IMG/VR virus record: IMGVR_UViG_3300000553_000014
Location: 1 to 64,000 of that record
DNA from: a virus
Direction: 5' to 3' (one strand)
DNA length: 64,000 bases
Under the pieces are notes generated by a model. The model saw nothing but the letters and a program-made list of their open reading frames with translations. It did not search any database and was not told where the DNA came from. This document shows, in pieces, positions 59,325-62,429 of the stretch; the first letter of the stretch is position 1, and every line of letters starts with the position of its first letter. Both the position numbers and the translations under genes were made by a program.

Positions 59325-59417
59325 ACGTACCAGGAATTTTTAACATTTTTTATATTATCTTAATAGTTATCCACTTAAATTTTTCTGTTCATTTTTTGAG
59401 TAAAAATTCTGGTACGT
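59325..59417. repeat. 93-bp terminal-inverted-repeat hairpin element 1
   Basis: ACGTACCAG...CTGGTACGT; arms extend to about 25 bp. Confidence 0.9.
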
Positions 59418-59430
59418 AAATTTGAAAAGC

Positions 59431-59473
59431 TAAAAAATAAGCCCGAAATTTTACAATTCCGAACTTATTTTTA
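59431..59473 (-). terminator. Minus-strand intrinsic terminator
   Basis: Minus strand ATAAGTTCGGAATT/AATTTCGGGCTTAT plus T-tract (G-U pairs only on this strand). Confidence 0.8.
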
Positions 59474-59486
59474 GGCTCATAATTGA

Positions 59487-59906
59487 TTATAAATCAGCAC
59501 AAAAAGGACCAATACCTCTCTTAATTGACTCAGGTGTTGTTAATGTTCTTCCGCACCTGCAACAATGTCCATGATGATAAAAAACAAGTTTACTATGAGG
59601 TTTATTATTGTTTAAATAATGTTCAATAATAAATTTAATAACTTCAACAGAAGTTGGAGTTTTTGTTAATTTTTTTGATTGAACAAACTTAAATTCTGTT
59701 TTTGCTTCGTTTGTATATAAATTCCCTATAAAATTATAACTTTCATAAGCATAACAAACAGAAACAAAAAACATATTTTTATTAGTTTTGCATAAATTTA
59801 TTTTATATGTGAAACGATTTTTTGTCTCTTCACTTTCAACAGTGAAATATGCACGACCTCCCAAAATAAACTCTTTTTGGTTTTCAATAACAATATTATC
59901 TTGCAT
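59487..59906 (-). CDS. DUF6011 family protein
   Basis: CCRCGRTLTTPESIKRGIGPFCA. Confidence 0.85.
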   Translation of the reverse strand: MQDNIVIENQKEFILGGRAYFTVESEETKNRFTYKINLCKTNKNMFFVSVCYAYESYNFIGNLYTNEAKTEFKFVQSKKLTKTPTSVEVIKFIIEHYLNNNKPHSKLVFYHHGHCCRCGRTLTTPESIKRGIGPFCADL

Positions 59907-59917
59907 AAATAAATTTT

Positions 59918-60040
59918 TTAATATTTGTAAATATTTCCACGAAATGCTTGACGTATGGAAGCAAAAAAATCTTGAATTATTTGTTCTTCTGTTTTTGCTT
60001 TTTTAATTTCTTTTGAATTTTTTATTGCTTTTGTTTTCAT
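59918..60040 (-). CDS. 40-aa basic peptide (not in track)
   Basis: MKTKAIKNSKEIKKAKTEEQIIQDFFASIRQAFRGNIYKY, directly after the minus-strand promoter. Confidence 0.65.
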   Translation of the reverse strand: MKTKAIKNSKEIKKAKTEEQIIQDFFASIRQAFRGNIYKY

Positions 60041-60071
60041 ATACAAAAATTATTTGATTATTCATATTATA

Positions 60072-60101
60072 TATATCCATAATTTTTGCGAAATATGAGA
60101 T
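60072..60101 (-). promoter_or_regulatory. Phage bipartite promoter (minus strand)
   Basis: ATCTCAT-N15-TGGATATA on minus strand. Confidence 0.85.
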
Positions 60102-60113
60102 ATTTGGAAAATA

Positions 60114-60314
60114 ACGCACCAGTAAATATAACATATATAATGTATATAAAAATTTTGTAGGTTATTACTCTTATATATTAAAAATATATTATATGTATTT
60201 ACTGGTGCGTTTATATTACGTACCAGTAAATATAGCATATATAATGTGTATATAAATTTTGTAGGTTATTACTCTTATATATTAAAAATATACTATATGT
60301 ATTTACTGGTACGT
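60114..60314. repeat. Two tandem 97-bp hairpin elements (2 and 3), 104-bp period
   Basis: ACGCACCAG...CTGGTGCGT (60114-60210) and ACGTACCAG...CTGGTACGT (60218-60314). Confidence 0.95.
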
Positions 60315-60371
60315 ATTAGTTAATTTTATCCTGAAATTGTATAAATATTGGTATTTTGGTATTATAAGTAA

Positions 60372-60527
60372 ACGTACCAGCATATATAGATATTTAATAT
60401 TAACGTACCAGTAAAATATCTCCAAAATTATTATATATGGTATTTATCAAGGTATTTACCTTATTATAATAATATATTATATAATTTACTGGTACGTTTA
60501 TTATTATACTATTGATTACTGGTACGT
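60372..60527. repeat. 95-bp hairpin element 4 (60403-60497) nested in an outer motif pair
   Basis: ACGTACCAG at 60372 and 60403; CTGGTACGT at 60489 and 60519. Confidence 0.9.
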
Positions 60528-60551
60528 TTGGTTTGAACTTATTTTTCGATT

Positions 60552-60672
60552 TGCCCATTTTTTAGAAAAATTATGGATATATATATTATGAGACACAACA
60601 AAATTATATAATAATAAAAATAAATAAAAATAATTTCGATTTTGCTCATTATTTAAGAATTTCGTGGATATA
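60552..60672 (+). promoter_or_regulatory. Two tandem phage promoters
   Basis: TGCCCAT(60552)-N15-TGGATATA and TGCTCAT(60643)-N15-TGGATATA. Confidence 0.85.
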
Positions 60673-60740
60673 TATAATATAATGTATCACACATTAAAAA
60701 TAATCAAATAAATTTTATAACAAATCAAATTTTAATTCAA

Positions 60741-61433
60741 ATGTCAAAAGCAAAAAATCAAAATGCTCAAGGAGCTGTTGAAAACGACAACACAAACGTT
60801 AATGAAGTTGAAGGAACAACTACAACAACCGAAACTATGGTTGAAGGTTTAGAAGATGCAAACACAGATGAACTTGCTCCTCTACCAACAAATGCAAATG
60901 CTCCAAAATATTCTTACAGAAAATGGTTGGAAGAAAATGAACCTACTTTTATTGAAGGTCAAGTATCAAAAAAATTCGACAAAGCTCGTGAGCCAAAAGT
61001 TCAAGCTGGTTTGAAAGTTATTTCTGAGCTAATGGGTGGCTCAATTGCTCCTTTAATCCTTTTATTAGGGAAATGGTGGGAAGTTAAACCTGCACGTGCT
61101 GAAATAAAGAAAATGATTGACGCCGAAGCAGAAAAAAATGGCAGACCTACTGACCACTACTTACAAGTTGATTTACGTGAAAATGTTGACAAGTTAGCAA
61201 CAATCCAAAATGCTACTGACAGACTTCGTTACGCAATCACTTATTTCAAACCAAGAGGTGGTTTATCTTCAAAAGAAATCTTCAAATCTGTTATGATTCG
61301 TGGCCAAGTTTACAGTGTAAGTATTACAAAATTGACCGAAATTAAAGCAGAATTTCCAAATGTTGAAGACAAAGAAAAATTATTCGATGCAGTTATTGCA
61401 TGTTCAACATTAGTAGGTGTTGACGAATTATAA
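60741..61433 (+). CDS. Probably highly expressed protein, paralog of 52182
   Basis: MSKA..., poly-Thr, VMIRGQVYSV...KEKL; many GAC/TAC/TTC codons; double promoter. Confidence 0.85.
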   Translation: MSKAKNQNAQGAVENDNTNVNEVEGTTTTTETMVEGLEDANTDELAPLPTNANAPKYSYRKWLEENEPTFIEGQVSKKFDKAREPKVQAGLKVISELMGGSIAPLILLLGKWWEVKPARAEIKKMIDAEAEKNGRPTDHYLQVDLRENVDKLATIQNATDRLRYAITYFKPRGGLSSKEIFKSVMIRGQVYSVSITKLTEIKAEFPNVEDKEKLFDAVIACSTLVGVDEL

Positions 61434-61466
61434 AAAGAAATCTTCCTTTAAAATTTTGTCTATCTG

Positions 61467-61501
61467 AAAGTTCCAATGCGAAAGTGTTGGAACTTTTTTT
61501 T
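61467..61501 (+). terminator. Intrinsic terminator with GAAA tetraloop
   Basis: AAAGTTCCAATGC-GAAA-GTGTTGGAACTTT plus T-tract. Confidence 0.9.
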
Positions 61502-61515
61502 GTATATATAACTTT

Positions 61516-61785
61516 ACGTACCAGTAAATAATGATATTTTCAAGATATATAAAATTGAGTGGACAATACTCAAGATACTAAAGAAAATTCAATAATTTAC
61601 TGGTGCGTTTTGTTATATAGATATTTAATATAATTTGTAATAATAATATATAAAACTAATCGTACCTGTAATATATTGATATAGAAGTAATCGCACCAGA
61701 AAATATTATGAAAAAATGACTCATATAATAAAAGTAAGCATATATTCAAGATAAAAGAATAAAAAGAGATAATTTGCTGGTGCGT
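61516..61785. repeat. 270-bp repeat block 1, containing hairpin elements 5 (61516-61608) and 6 (61691-61785)
   Basis: Near-identical to 62160-62429 over the first about 185 bp. Confidence 0.95.
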
Positions 61786-61797
61786 TAATTATGCTTT

Positions 61798-61827
61798 TGC
61801 TCACATTTCCCAAAAATTATGGATATA
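61798..61827 (+). promoter_or_regulatory. Phage bipartite promoter
   Basis: TGCTCAC-N15-TGGATATA. Confidence 0.85.
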
Positions 61828-61872
61828 TATATTATGAGACAACAAATTTATAAATAAATTAATACAAATCAA

Positions 61873-62130
61873 ATGTTAACAAAATTAAGTGCTGGTGTTA
61901 CTTTTAAAAGTAAACATCTTAAAAATACAAGAATTGAAGTTCTTAATATTGATATTTTGAACAATATTTTGAAGGTCAAAATTAATAAAAAGCTTGAATC
62001 TCATTTATCAGATTGGAATGAAGAATGGAATTTGCAACATACTTTATGGGTATTTGAAGATGGTACCTATGAGCTTGAAAATAATTTCGAAGGCTTTCCA
62101 CCAACTTATTATAGTAAAATTGCACATTAA
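61873..62130 (+). CDS. Hypothetical protein (single-gene cassette)
   Basis: Own promoter and terminator; flanked by repeat blocks. Confidence 0.8.
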   Translation: MLTKLSAGVTFKSKHLKNTRIEVLNIDILNNILKVKINKKLESHLSDWNEEWNLQHTLWVFEDGTYELENNFEGFPPTYYSKIAH

Positions 62131-62144
62131 TTGTGCAATTTTTT
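62116..62144 (+). terminator. Intrinsic terminator overlapping the stop codon
   Basis: AAAATTGCACA-TTAAT-TGTGCAATTTT. Confidence 0.8.
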
Positions 62145-62159
62145 TATATATTAAACATT

Positions 62160-62429
62160 ACGCACCAGCAAATAATGATATTTTCAAGATATATAAAATT
62201 GAGTGGACAATACTCAAGATACTAAAGAAAATTCAATAATTTACTGGTGCGTTTTGTTATATAGATATTTAATATAATTTGTAATAATAATACATAAAAC
62301 TAATCGTACCTGTAATATATTGATATAGAAGTAATCGCACCAGGTATAAAGTGTATATTTTGAGTTATATGATAAAAACAAGCATATACTCAAGGAAAAA
62401 AAATAAAAAGATATAATTTTCTGGTACGT
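62160..62429. repeat. 270-bp repeat block 2, containing hairpin elements 7 (62160-62252) and 8 (62335-62429)
   Basis: Direct repeat of 61516-61785, 644 bp apart. Confidence 0.95.

What the first reader, a model, noticed from the sequence alone, without database searches (positions are those of the whole stretch)
59325..62429. Eight fixed-length (93-97 bp) long-hairpin elements partition promoter-gene-terminator cassettes
Seen: ACGYACCAG...CTGGTRCGT pairs spanning 93, 97, 97, 95, 93, 95, 93 and 95 bp (two start TCGCACCAG). Interiors fall into several dissimilar types, yet pairing often extends inward (e.g. ATTTTC/GAAAAT and TTGAGT/ACTCAA in 61516). Tandem copies 60114 and 60218 show a compensatory C-G to T-A change, and extra half-sites sit 31 bp outside some elements. 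All are intergenic, lie between transcription units, and were not noticed in the other 59 kb. Established: integron attC sites and MITE/REPIN elements have conserved ends, variable cores and ssDNA folding; several ends here read AAC...GTT as in attC. Inference: a phage cassette-shuffling or recombination system, or paired protein-binding sites about nine helical turns apart (DNA entry, packaging or partition). No recombinase is visible in this window.
Basis: partly seen in the sequence, partly recalled or inferred. Interest (0 to 1): 0.8.

Follow-up and report, generated by a model that had tools for sequence, protein, structure and literature searches.

The report
Phased protein-docking modules in a phage
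The eight ~95-bp elements are real, but they look like three-part docking sites for DNA-binding proteins on ordinary double-stranded DNA, always found beside one conserved phage gene of unknown function, rather than like folded hairpins or mobile recombination sites.

Summary
CGYACCAG occurs 18 times (0.06 expected), only at 59326-62428 of the 88.3-kb phage record, as eight inverted pairs 93-97 bp long, plus extra sites 30-31 bp outside.

The hairpin, attC and MITE reading does not hold:
- Interiors pair at chance level.
- The two arms show no compensating changes in 130 pairs from 21 loci.
- There are no target-site duplications.
- No integrase, resolvase, Y1 or rve gene was found in five related records.

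Relatives with 22-49% GC keep the same geometry:
- Two inverted CACC-core sites lie 84-88 bp apart (122 of 135 pairs).
- A palindrome (WWGGCAWWTGCCWW) sits between them with arms of about 38 and 48 bp, one helical turn apart.
- Extra sites lie 31 bp outside.

There is one cluster per genome, always around the gene for an uncharacterised 200-250-aa protein (window 60741-61433). In the window the modules lie between terminators and phage promoters.

Best reading: helically phased protein-docking modules, probably bound by that protein, which regulate or insulate the local expression cassettes. The binder and the function are inferred, not shown.

This scan found the same kind of element before on other DNA (e1-5909872, e1-3420056). 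My literature searches found no description of it.

The parts
59325..59417 (.). Element 1 (93 bp), between two convergent terminators
   Evidence: Inverted CGTACCAG cores at 59326 and 59409. No confident central motif.
60114..60210 (.). Element 2 (97 bp). Its left site starts 13 bp from the upstream box of the minus-strand promoter.
   Evidence: Cores at 60115 and 60202. 93% identical to element 3. Degenerate central word at 60158-60173 (assigned by eye).
60218..60314 (.). Element 3 (97 bp), a tandem copy of element 2
   Evidence: Cores at 60219 and 60306.
60372..60384 (+). Extra end site, 31 bp outside element 4
   Evidence: Core at 60373, 23.4 bits.
60403..60497 (.). Element 4 (95 bp), the only window element with a strong central palindrome (60448-60463, CAAGGTATTTACCTTA), set 5.5 bp right of centre
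   Evidence: Cores at 60404 and 60489. Central motif scores 16.5 against a shuffle 95th percentile of 6.5. Coordinates.
60514..60527 (-). Extra end site, 30 bp outside element 4 and 25 bp before the promoter box at 60552
   Evidence: Core at 60519, 22.5 bits.
61516..61608 (.). Element 5 (93 bp), starting 18 nt after the terminator stem that ends at 61497
   Evidence: Cores at 61517 and 61600. Terminator.
61660..61673 (+). Weak extra site (CGTACCTG), 31 bp before element 6
   Evidence: 13.1 bits.
61691..61785 (.). Element 6 (95 bp). Its right site ends 13 bp before the promoter box at 61798. Central word TAAGCATATATTCAAG at 61735-61750.
   Evidence: Cores at 61692 and 61777.; the central word was assigned by eye and scores below 12.
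62160..62252 (.). Element 7 (93 bp), a near copy of element 5
   Evidence: Cores at 62161 and 62244. Repeat family D1 and identity profile.
62304..62317 (+). Weak extra site (CGTACCTG), 31 bp before element 8
   Evidence: 13.1 bits.
62335..62429 (.). Element 8 (95 bp). Its right site ends 22 bp before the promoter box at 62451. Central word CAAGCATATACTCAAG at 62379-62394.
   Evidence: Cores at 62336 and 62421.. Its interior is the only one that folds better than shuffles (z -2.78).
60741..61433 (+). Gene for the 230-aa protein that always accompanies the element cluster. It is the candidate binder and has two tandem promoters upstream.
   Evidence: It is the only ORF shared by all 8 loci compared. 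84 homologues and 77 clusters at 50% identity. No Pfam, PHROG, PDB or GenBank-phage match.
60072..60101 (-). Phage-type promoter of the minus-strand gene
   Evidence: Matches box-N16-TGGATATA. Inverted repeat I1 with the promoter at 61800.
60552..60672 (+). Two tandem phage-type promoters (60552-60581 and 60643-60672) before the 230-aa gene
   Evidence: Tandem promoters are also seen upstream of the homologue in L136, L137, L138 and L139 (by eye).
61798..61827 (+). Phage-type promoter of the 85-aa gene
62451..62480 (+). Degenerate phage-type promoter (TACTCA-N16-CGGATATA) of the 145-aa gene
59281..59303 (+). Terminator. Element 1 starts 21 nt after its stem.
59433..59472 (-). Terminator of the minus-strand gene. 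Element 1 ends 15 nt from its stem.
61466..61497 (+). Terminator of the 230-aa gene
62116..62142 (+). Terminator of the 85-aa gene. Element 7 starts 17 nt after its stem.
59487..59906 (-). 139-aa DUF6011 protein gene inside the cluster. It is not conserved at this place in relatives.
   Evidence: PF19474, E 8.9e-15. Homologues lie outside the clusters in L135 and L136.
61873..62130 (+). 85-aa cassette gene framed by the duplicated block

Best explanation
Each element is a three-part docking module on duplex DNA. Two 13-16-bp end sites (window consensus WWACGYACCAGTAAAT, with a CACC-type core shared by the relatives) face each other 84-88 bp apart. Between them lies a short palindrome (WWGGCAWWTGCCWW, which reads CAAGRCATATGYCTTG in A+T-rich relatives). 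The palindrome is about 38 bp from one end site and about 48 bp from the other. The 10-bp difference is one helical turn. Further end sites sit 31 bp (three turns) outside, mostly on the long-arm side.

Such fixed, turn-wise spacing with free linker sequence is what a protein complex needs when it contacts several sites on one face of a bent or wrapped stretch of 95-125 bp. I infer that a phage protein complex assembles on every module.

The most likely component is the 200-250-aa protein encoded in the middle of the array (window 60741-61433). Its most conserved segment is the same across the site classes. It would therefore read the shared parts of the module, meaning the palindrome or the CACC core.

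In the window the modules sit 15-21 nt behind terminator stems and 13-25 bp ahead of the upstream box of phage-type promoters. I propose that the complexes autoregulate and insulate the strongly expressed gene cassettes of this one locus.

Shown: the sites, their geometry, their conservation, their restriction to one locus, their link to the gene, and the lack of any sign of folding or transposition. Inferred: that proteins bind, which protein binds, and what binding does.
For: The sites are real and confined to one locus.
- In the window record, 20 of 20 matrix hits lie at 59326-62421 of 88.3 kb.
- In the complete 208.5-kb relative G002, 18 of 19 GCGCACCRG sites lie at 5738-9238.
- In G003 (160.9 kb), all 16 sites lie at 86547-89233.
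- No other recurrent paired word exists in the window's record.

The geometry is conserved while the sequence drifts.
- In 20 loci, 122 of 135 inverted pairs span 84-88 bp.
- Over 405 sites in 21 loci, same-orientation spacing peaks at 31 bp (34 cases; next highest 27 bp with 12).
- Convergent spacing peaks at 83-87 bp (130 cases) and at 112-118 bp (62 cases).
- The layout holds from 22% to 49% GC.
- Site words differ between lineages: ACGCACC, TACACACC, TTGTCCACCGG and TTCACACCAT.

The central palindrome is placed precisely. 71 of 135 pairs score at least 12 (shuffle 95th percentile 6.5), and 70 of these 71 have arms of 37-40 and 47-49 bp.

There is no sign of folding.
- Interiors pair at 8-16 of 32-34 positions in the window and at 3-12 of 34-35 in G002.
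- Interior folding z-scores lie between +0.88 and -1.16 in 7 of 8 window elements.
- Left-right agreement equals expectation at every variable position, for example 82 observed against 86.5 expected at the N of CACCNG (130 pairs).

The link to the gene runs both ways.
- The 230-aa homologue is the only ORF shared by all 8 loci compared.
- 21 of 25 metagenome loci found through the protein have at least two such pairs. The other four loci, 1.1-4.9 kb long, have one pair each.
- Of 111 IMG/VR stretches found through one exact pair, only 5 have three or more pairs. All 5 come from records that encode the homologue.
- Arrays lie on both sides of the gene.
- In the most distant homologue locus, L141 (33% identity), about ten tandem 34-bp repeats stand upstream instead.

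The protein's conservation fits nucleic-acid binding. 8 of its 21 invariant residues after Met1 are Lys or Arg.

The modules have a polarity that tends to follow the gene on the right. With a '+' ORF on the right there are 39 '>' and 7 '<' elements. With a '-' ORF there are 12 and 11.

Position in the window: terminators, promoters.
Against: No protein has been shown to bind.
- The 230-aa family has no detectable DNA-binding domain.
- The only hint is a sub-threshold RelB-like (ribbon-helix-helix) match in 5 of 31 members (best E 0.0054, score 16 against a cut-off of 50).
- Profile comparison with P22 Arc and Mnt was negative, with probabilities of 0.2% and 0.3%.

In the window itself the central motif reaches the score threshold in only 1 of 8 elements.

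The site-to-promoter distance is not fixed: 13, 13, 22 and 25 bp. It differs again in relatives.

The ten other strict copies of the same promoter motif elsewhere in the record have no module. The modules are therefore not a general promoter part. Restriction to a single locus would suit a landmark function (origin, terminus or organising centre) at least as well.

The polarity statistic counts related elements as if they were independent. No RNA data exist.
Confidence: 0.55

Rival explanations
1. Genome landmark. The array is a unique cis-acting locus, for example a replication origin, a polar fork-arrest (Ter-like) trap or an organising centre. The 230-aa protein would be its site-specific binder, and any effect on promoters would be secondary.
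For: There is one cluster per genome, even in genomes of 161 and 208.5 kb. Arrays flank the binder candidate's gene on both sides. From recall, iterons flank repA or repE and Ter sites adjoin tus or rtp in the same way. The modules are polar, and in L136, L155, L156 and L161 they form two opposed groups ('<<<' then '>>>>'). The cluster lies at the convergent junction of the two large gene blocks, where the cumulative GC skew turns. L141 has an iteron-like 34-bp tandem array.
Against: GC skew follows gene strand here, so it says nothing separately about replication. No AT-rich unwinding stretch stands out other than the promoter regions. No ParA-type ATPase (AAA_31, CbiA) is found in five records, so a classical partition system is lacking. 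In the window and in L135 all oriented modules point one way. Genes with their own promoters and terminators lie between the modules.
Confidence: 0.15
2. PeSL-like exchange junctions. The repeats matter mainly as stretches of homology at which phages swap promoter-gene-terminator cassettes by ordinary homologous recombination. Their internal architecture would be incidental.
For: Gene content between modules differs among relatives, and only the 230-aa gene is constant. In the window a block at 61532-61691 is identical in 159 of 160 aligned columns to the block 644 bp downstream, and identity falls at both edges near '+' end sites. Near-identical two-element units also frame genes in L137, L152, L165 and L172 (by eye). 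PeSLs are composite terminator/promoter repeats proposed to do this in T4-like phages (PMC4122927, abstract read).
Against: Homology alone does not explain the 84-88-bp span, the 38/48-bp arms and the 31-bp steps, which are kept across lineages whose site words and linkers have diverged and whose GC content ranges from 22% to 49%. It also does not explain restriction to one locus. Contigs from four runs showed no alternative joints, but they were too fragmentary to count as a test.
Confidence: 0.12
3. Folded single-strand elements. These would be long hairpins or cruciforms acting as attC-like recombination sites, REPIN-like elements or structured RNAs.
For: Whole elements fold better than shuffles, with z from -2.6 to -6.0. 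The tandem pair 60114/60218 shows a matched C-G to T-A difference. The palindrome could form a small central hairpin.
Against: The folding signal comes from the 9-14-nt arms alone. 7 of 8 interiors fold like shuffles. Interior complementarity is at chance in the window, in G001 (5-15 of 32-34) and in 49%-GC G002 (3-12 of 34-35). There is no arm-to-arm covariation in 130 pairs. The freely varying N in CACCNG would give mismatches. No Rfam family reaches its threshold. No integrase or Y1 HUH gene was found.
Confidence: 0.03
4. Miniature transposable elements (MITEs) with 14-bp terminal inverted repeats, moved by a transposase acting in trans.
For: The elements have terminal inverted repeats and a small, uniform size, and some copies are near-identical.
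Against: Flanking direct repeats of 2-5 bp occur at shuffle level for five trial boundaries (for example k=3: 10 of 122 against a mean of 8.2). Interiors are unrelated between types. The copies sit at one locus in the same gene neighbourhood across distant relatives. Solo sites occur at fixed 31-bp offsets. No rve, Y1, integrase or resolvase genes were found. Other DDE families and host transposases were not tested.
Confidence: 0.03
5. Invertible switches. A recombinase would flip the 85-bp segment between the inverted sites, which would explain why modules occur in both polarities.
For: Inverted repeats bound an asymmetric interior, and both polarities exist (53 '>' and 18 '<').
Against: No serine or tyrosine recombinase was found in five records. 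The segment is very short for synapsis (from recall). Polarity is stable within lineages and follows the neighbouring gene. The contigs laid showed no strand-changing joints, which is only a weak test.
Confidence: 0.02

Closest known systems
PeSLs (promoter-early stem-loops) of T4-type phages (PMC2839356, search listing only; PMC4122927, abstract read)
   Same: Both are repeated composite control sequences between small, variable, self-promoted genes of large lytic phages. Both show signs of exchange or duplication with edges in the repeats.
   Different: According to the abstract, a PeSL is a terminator stem-loop plus an early promoter. Here a separate ~95-bp tripartite module with fixed helical geometry lies between terminator and promoter. 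It occurs at a single locus and travels with one conserved gene.
Centromere and operator arrays read by small plasmid or phage proteins whose genes lie beside them: R1 parC/ParR, omega heptads of pSM19035, and iterons flanking repA (P1) or repE (F).
   Same: These are arrays of phased short sites in both orientations. They flank the gene of the presumed binder and overlap its promoter region, and one array exists per replicon.
   Different: No ParA-type ATPase was found. The units are not simple tandem repeats but inverted pairs 85 bp apart around a second motif. The binder's fold is unknown, and the test for ribbon-helix-helix was inconclusive.
BIME-1/RIP elements of E. coli: two inverted REPs around an IHF site (PMC3333891 and PMC2817692, abstracts in search listings; the IHF detail is recalled)
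   Same: These are extragenic units of about 100 bp made of two inverted repeats around a central protein site, placed after transcription units.
   Different: Each REP is itself a stem-loop and the end sites here are not. REPs are dispersed in hundreds of copies and linked to Y1 transposases, which are absent here.
Stoperators of cluster A mycobacteriophages (PMC9283540 and PMC6550527, abstracts in search listings)
   Same: These are short asymmetric phage sites in intergenic DNA whose orientation relates to transcription. They are read by a phage protein and vary between lineages.
   Different: Stoperators are single 13-14-bp sites spread over the whole genome of temperate phages. Here the sites form fixed pairs with a central motif at one locus.
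Phage phi29 p4/p6 nucleoprotein hairpin at promoters A2c/A2b/A3 (PMC3100819, abstract in search listing)
   Same: Several phased sites are bound cooperatively so that about 100 bp of promoter DNA is bent into a defined complex that switches transcription.
   Different: The proteins and sites are unrelated, and phi29 has one such region rather than an array of 8-12 modules.

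Membership tests
Integron attC sites | Imperfect palindrome along the whole site, so that one strand folds (R''/L'' pairing with L'/R') | tested here: not met
   Only the 9-14-nt ends pair. Interiors pair at 8-16 of 32-34 positions (window) and 3-12 of 34-35 (G002), and 7 of 8 interiors fold like shuffles.
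Integron attC sites | An IntI-type tyrosine recombinase in the same element | tested here: not met
   PF00589 gave 0 of 5 records, including the complete G002. The control matched in 14 of 14 genomes.
Integron attC sites | Promoterless cassettes expressed from a common Pc | tested here: not met
   Each cassette has its own phage-type promoter and terminator.
MITE | Terminal inverted repeats | tested here: met
   The ends are 9-14-nt inverted repeats.
MITE | Target-site duplications flanking each copy | tested here: not met
   Identical flanks occur at shuffle level for k=2-5 at five trial boundaries in 122 pairs.
MITE | Copies alike along their whole length and dispersed in the genome | tested here: not met
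   There are five unrelated interior types in the window, and all copies sit at one locus.
REP/BIME/REPIN | Each unit is a stem-loop, and a REPIN folds as one long hairpin | tested here: not met
   The end sites are not self-complementary and the interiors do not pair.
REP/BIME/REPIN | An associated RAYT (Y1 HUH transposase) | tested here: not met
   PF01797 gave 0 of 5 records. Host genomes could not be tested because the host is unknown.
PeSL | Composite terminator stem-loop plus early promoter between small variable genes | tested here: met
   Terminator and promoter flank every cassette in the window. This describes the surroundings, not the 95-bp module itself.
PeSL | Breakpoints of indels or replacements between close relatives fall in the repeat | tested here: inconclusive
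   There is one internal duplication with edges near end sites.
ParR/omega/ParG-type centromere-operator arrays | Array of phased repeats next to the binder's gene | tested here: met
   Arrays lie on both sides of the 230-aa gene in the window, G001, G002, G003, G004 and other loci.
ParR/omega/ParG-type centromere-operator arrays | The binder has a ribbon-helix-helix fold | tested here: inconclusive
   NF048017 (RelB-like) matches 5 of 31 members with best E 0.0054, far below its cut-off. hhalign against P22 Arc and Mnt gave probabilities of 0.2% and 0.3%.
ParR/omega/ParG-type centromere-operator arrays | A partner motor ATPase (ParA or ParM) | tested here: not met
   PF13614 and PF01656 each gave 0 of 5 records. 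ParM and TubZ were not tested.
Stoperators | Single asymmetric sites dispersed genome-wide, all oriented with transcription | tested here: not met
   The sites come in inverted pairs and lie at one locus only.

The most novel reading that the evidence does not exclude
The array and the 200-250-aa protein together form a new kind of phage chromosome landmark. It would be a single locus per 160-210-kb genome where a novel DNA-binding protein wraps 8-12 polar, helically phased modules. The locus would serve as an organising centre, a replication fork trap (Ter/Tus-like, with opposed module polarities around the binder's gene) or an origin, at the junction of the early and structural gene blocks. 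This is a function not yet known from lytic tailed phages.
Probability: 0.15. Interest if true: 0.85.

Novelty: new variant of a known kind. Interest (0 to 1): 0.6.

Why it matters
Large uncultured phages carry many repeated intergenic elements that are routinely read as hairpins, MITEs or recombination sites.

Here the comparative evidence gives a precise and testable architecture. Two inverted sites lie 85 bp apart, a palindrome sits one helical turn off-centre between them, and extra sites lie three turns outside. This layout is conserved from 22% to 49% GC and is tied to one uncharacterised protein family (77 clusters at 50% identity, with no known domain).

That gives a concrete pair, one protein and one ~125-bp DNA, for binding and structural work. 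Such work would assign a function to an orphan phage protein family. It could also reveal how these phages control or insulate strongly expressed gene cassettes, or how they mark a unique place on their chromosome.

Tried and rejected
Hairpin, attC or REPIN reading: rejected. The good folding scores of whole elements come from the arms alone.

MITE reading: rejected because there are no target duplications, all copies sit at a single locus, and no transposase was found in the families tested.

Host DnaA boxes. Some lineages' end sites look like TTATNCACA (consensus recalled). I dropped this because the window class (ACGCACC) departs at a position that I recall as conserved, and because a universal host factor would not predict lineage-specific words. 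It was not tested formally.

Sigma-54 promoter, IHF site or NdeI site in the central palindrome: considered by eye and dropped, because spacing or sequence is not kept across lineages.

Ribbon-helix-helix lead for the 230-aa protein: weak matches, not confirmed by hhalign against Arc and Mnt.

Function of the 230-aa protein: nothing came from Pfam, PHROGs, NCBIfam, PDB sequences, GenBank phages or the ESM Atlas.

First pattern scan of viral contigs: too unspecific. It gave only single chance matches and was unused.

Protein search with the single 230-aa sequence in viral contigs: no relative found. The alignment-based scan worked.

DNA search of the region against GenBank phages: no match.

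Sequencing runs: no RNA holder is listed. Contigs of four freshwater DNA runs laid on 58800-63600 were short, broke at the repeats and showed no joints, so they say nothing for or against cassette variants.

Rfam: nothing at gathering score, and the sub-threshold rows lie on terminators.

AT-rich unwinding element in G002: only promoter-sized dips.

Literature: four searches found comparators but no description of this element family. Supplements were closed and were not consulted.

Full report
**What the window is**

The window is the first 64 kb of an 88,302-bp IMG/VR phage record with 22-23% GC. CheckV rates it 36% complete.

Positions 1-63.5 kb carry plus-strand genes for DNA metabolism: an SbcCD-like nuclease, ribonucleotide reductase, dCMP deaminase, NAD ligase and a helicase. 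From 63.6 kb on, all genes are on the minus strand and include a portal protein and a head maturation protease. The finding lies at the far end of the plus-strand block, just before this convergent junction.

**The observation**

CGYACCAG occurs 18 times, where 0.06 are expected, and every copy lies between 59326 and 62428.

The copies form eight facing pairs. A weight matrix built from the 18 sites (consensus WWACGYACCAGTAAAT) finds 20 hits in the whole 88-kb record. All 20 lie in this 3.1-kb stretch. Two of them are weaker CGTACCTG sites at 61661 and 62305.

Four sites stand alone: 60373, 60519, 61661 and 62305. Each lies 30-31 bp outside an element and has the orientation of the neighbouring end site. 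No other word in the record forms recurrent inverted pairs at 40-140 bp.

**Layout in the window**

| Order | Feature | Coordinates |
|---|---|---|
| 1 | Gene (+) | ends 59246 |
| 2 | Terminator | 59281-59303 |
| 3 | Element 1 | 59325-59417 |
| 4 | Minus-strand terminator | 59433-59472 |
| 5 | DUF6011 gene (-) | 59487-59906 |
| 6 | Minus-strand promoter | 60072-60101 |
| 7 | Elements 2, 3, extra site, element 4, extra site | 60114-60527 |
| 8 | Two tandem promoters | 60552 and 60643 |
| 9 | 230-aa gene | 60741-61433 |
| 10 | Terminator | 61466-61497 |
| 11 | Element 5, weak site, element 6 | 61516-61785 |
| 12 | Promoter | 61798 |
| 13 | 85-aa gene | 61873-62130 |
| 14 | Terminator | 62116-62142 |
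| 15 | Element 7, weak site, element 8 | 62160-62429 |
| 16 | Promoter | 62451 |
| 17 | Further small genes | from 62508 |

- Elements begin 15-21 nt after a terminator stem.
- The promoter-proximal site ends 13, 13, 22 or 25 bp before the upstream box of the phage-type promoter (box-N16-TGGATATA).
- Ten further strict copies of that promoter elsewhere in the record have no such site.

**The elements are not hairpins**

Whole elements fold better than shuffles, with z between -2.6 and -6.0. This signal comes from the arms alone.

- *Interiors fold like shuffles.* With the 14-nt arms removed, the interiors give z-scores of +0.88, +0.66, +0.84, -0.45, -1.16, -0.21, -1.16 and -2.78.
- *Interiors do not pair.* Position-by-position complementarity inside the arms is:
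  - 8-16 of 32-34 in the window,
  - 5-15 of 32-34 in relative G001,
  - 3-12 of 34-35 in a 49%-GC relative, where chance is about a quarter.
- *The arms do not co-vary.* Over 130 pairs from 21 loci, the two arms agree at each variable position exactly as often as independent draws predict. Examples are 82 against 86.5, 111 against 110.7 and 90 against 89.5. The matched C/T difference between elements 2 and 3 is therefore not part of a trend, and elements 5 and 8 are mismatched at that position.
- *No known RNA family fits.* No Rfam family reaches its threshold.

**The elements are not mobile elements or recombinase sites**

- Flanking direct repeats of 2-5 bp occur at shuffle level for five trial boundaries in 122 pairs.
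- Phage_integrase, Resolvase, Y1_Tnp and rve profiles find nothing in the window's record or in four related records. One of these is rated 100% complete. The same searches hit 6-14 of 14 control genomes.

**Relatives**

A helicase search gave two related phage records. One of them, G001, has 17 exact CGYACCAG sites in 2.6 kb against 0 in the control. It shows the same pairs and the same 31-bp extras.

The ORF between the arrays, the 230-aa protein of the window, has 84 homologues in the large protein collection and 77 clusters at 50% identity. All are 70-307 aa long (most about 190-300) and none has a known domain.

Loci fetched through this protein came from three sources:
- 7 from IMG/VR,
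- 25 from metagenomes,
- the complete 208.5-kb record G002.

These loci show the same architecture almost everywhere.
- 21 of the 25 metagenome loci have at least two pairs. The remaining four loci are 1.1-4.9 kb long and have one pair each.
- The site word drifts between lineages:
  - ACGCACCNGTAAA, which reads GCGCACCGG in G002,
  - TACACACCNGTAAA,
  - TTGTCCACCGGT,
  - TTCACACCATAGA.
- The most distant homologue locus, L141 (33% identity), has about ten tandem 34-bp repeats upstream of the gene instead.

**Geometry**

- In 20 loci, 122 of 135 facing pairs span 84-88 bp, measured from the A of ACC to the T of GGT.
- Over 405 sites in 21 loci:
  - same-orientation neighbours peak at 31 bp (34 cases, the next highest being 27 bp with 12),
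  - facing sites peak at 83-87 bp (130 cases),
  - facing sites peak again at 112-118 bp (62 cases), which is a pair plus an extra site.
- A second motif, a palindrome, lies inside. It reads CAAGRCATATGYCTTG in A+T-rich phages and WWGGCAWWTGCCWW in G002.
  - 71 of 135 pairs score at least 12, against a shuffle 95th percentile of 6.5.
  - In 70 of these 71, the palindrome lies 37-40 bp from one end site and 47-49 bp from the other.
- The two arms thus differ by one helical turn, and the extra sites lie three turns out.
- In the window only element 4 has a strong palindrome (60448-60463). By eye, elements 6 and 8 carry a CAAG-N8-CAAG version at the same offset. Elements 2, 3, 5 and 7 carry degenerate versions.
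- The long-arm side also shows a semi-conserved extension of the end site (GTAAAAT..TC.), seen by eye in several lineages.

**Polarity**

The off-centre palindrome gives each module a direction.
- Of 71 oriented modules, 53 point '>' in loci drawn with the 230-aa gene on the plus strand.
- With a plus-strand ORF on the right there are 39 '>' and 7 '<' modules. With a minus-strand ORF on the right there are 12 and 11.
- In four loci (L136, L155, L156, L161) a '<' group is followed by a '>' group.
- These counts treat related elements as independent, so they describe a tendency only.

**One locus per genome, tied to one gene**

- In G002, 18 of 19 GCGCACCRG sites lie within 3.5 kb of 208.5 kb.
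- In G003, all 16 sites lie within 2.7 kb of 160.9 kb.
- In the window's record and in G003, the cluster sits where the long early block meets an oppositely transcribed block.
- The 230-aa gene is the only ORF shared by all 8 loci compared, and arrays lie on both sides of it.
- The reverse test agrees. A scan of IMG/VR for one exact pair returned 111 stretches. Of these, 106 had at most one pair and no homologue, which I read as chance matches. All 5 stretches with three or more pairs belong to records that encode the homologue. One of the five is a 3.1-kb piece of G004 that ends before the gene.

**What the 230-aa protein offers**

- It has a variable acidic N-terminus with a conserved (D/E)GLE motif.
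- Its core is very well conserved: ...KWWEVKPARAxIKKMIDAEA...YLQ..LR.NVD...DRL.YAITYFKPR.
- Its acidic C-terminus ends in E(E/I)L.
- 8 of its 21 invariant residues after Met1 are Lys or Arg.
- The core segment is nearly identical across the site classes. If it reads DNA, it reads what the classes share, namely the palindrome or the CACC core.
- A distant paralogue with the same end motifs lies at 52176-52769 (hhalign probability 92.8%).
- Five of 31 members give sub-threshold matches to a RelB-like (ribbon-helix-helix) antitoxin model. Profile comparison with P22 Arc and Mnt is negative. I treat this lead as open.

**Interpretation**

Spacing is fixed in whole helical turns and linker sequence is free. 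Both arms evolve independently. The architecture is conserved while the site words drift. Solo sites appear at set offsets. Together these are the marks of a multi-site protein complex on B-DNA that bends or wraps about 95-125 bp.

Two further points make the 230-aa protein the first candidate component and point to local control. The link to the gene runs both ways, and the modules are placed between terminators and promoters. I propose autoregulation and insulation of strongly expressed cassettes as the most likely role (confidence about 0.55).

The main rival is a landmark function (origin, fork trap or organising centre). The single locus, the two-sided arrays and the opposed polarities favour it. 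It lacks a ParA-type partner and any independent replication signal.

A PeSL-like role as exchange junctions is probably a side effect. The window holds a block at 61532-61691 that is identical in 159 of 160 aligned columns to the block 644 bp downstream, with edges near end sites. By eye, similar duplicated two-element units occur in other loci.

**Comparison with what is known**

The closest described things are:
- PeSLs (PMC4122927, abstract read; PMC2839356, listing only),
- centromere and operator arrays with an adjacent binder gene (recalled),
- BIME-1/RIP units (listings),
- stoperators (listings),
- the phi29 p4/p6 complex (listing).

None has this tripartite, one-turn-asymmetric module. 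My four literature searches found no description of it.

Earlier notes of this scan describe what seem to be the same or sister elements on other DNA (e1-5909872, e1-3420056) and reached a similar reading. I regard them as agreement between like-minded readers, not as independent proof.

This report adds the following:
- the two-way link to the 230-aa gene family,
- the restriction to one locus per genome,
- the 38/48-bp arm rule and the polarity,
- the conservation up to 49% GC,
- formal negative tests for covariation, target duplications, recombinases and ParA.

**Limits**

- No binding, expression or structural data exist.
- The host is unknown.
- The closest relative (85% identical protein) could not be fetched.
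- Counts over loci include related phages and some near-duplicate records.

Noticed in passing
window 52176-52769 (+): A distant paralogue of the 230-aa protein (197 aa, TTG start). It has the same N-terminal (D/E)GLE motif followed by a low-complexity stretch, and the same acidic E(E/I)L end. hhalign probability is 92.8%. Weak second matches also exist in G001, G003 and G004. No CGYACCAG sites lie near it.
   Followed up: partly
L141 4477-4830: In the most distant homologue locus (33% identity, 40% GC), the gene is preceded by about ten tandem ~34-bp repeats containing ATCATGA words, instead of the paired modules. The array looks iteron-like.
   Followed up: partly
window 61525-61699 and 62169-62343: A near-identical block is repeated 644 bp apart and frames the 85-aa gene. 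Columns at 61532-61691 are identical in 159 of 160 positions. Identity drops at both edges, near '+'-oriented end sites. By eye, similar duplicated two-element units occur in L137, L152, L165 and L172.
   Followed up: partly
window 63207-63241: A perfect sigma-70 consensus (TTGACA-16-TATAAT, 12 of 12) overlaps a copy of the phage-type promoter motif (63212-63241) in front of the Cys-rich 78-aa gene.
   Followed up: no
G000 64525-66549 (-), just beyond the window (L182 1025-3049): An earlier first-stage note calls this 674-aa ORF sigma-70-like. It gave no Pfam match at E<=0.01 and no PHROG match at E<=1e-5. It and two small ORFs before it are conserved next to the cluster in several relatives.
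   Followed up: partly
L139 4530-4860: In the 41%-GC relatives, the homologue is preceded by two tandem copies of a different promoter-like sequence with TTTG ... TAnnTTTG features. I recall these as Bacteroidota-type. This would suggest other hosts and host-type transcription in that lineage.
   Followed up: no
window 59487-59906 (-): The only minus-strand gene of the region encodes a DUF6011 (Cys-rich C-terminal) protein. Homologues in L135 and L136 lie outside the clusters, so it is a variable cassette gene here.
   Followed up: partly
L165 (human gut metagenome contig) and P0014 (a record named Candidatus Dojkabacteria): The protein family and its modules also occur outside freshwater samples, and one member sits in a genome bin labelled as a CPR bacterium. 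That bin is possibly a mis-binned phage contig.
   Followed up: no
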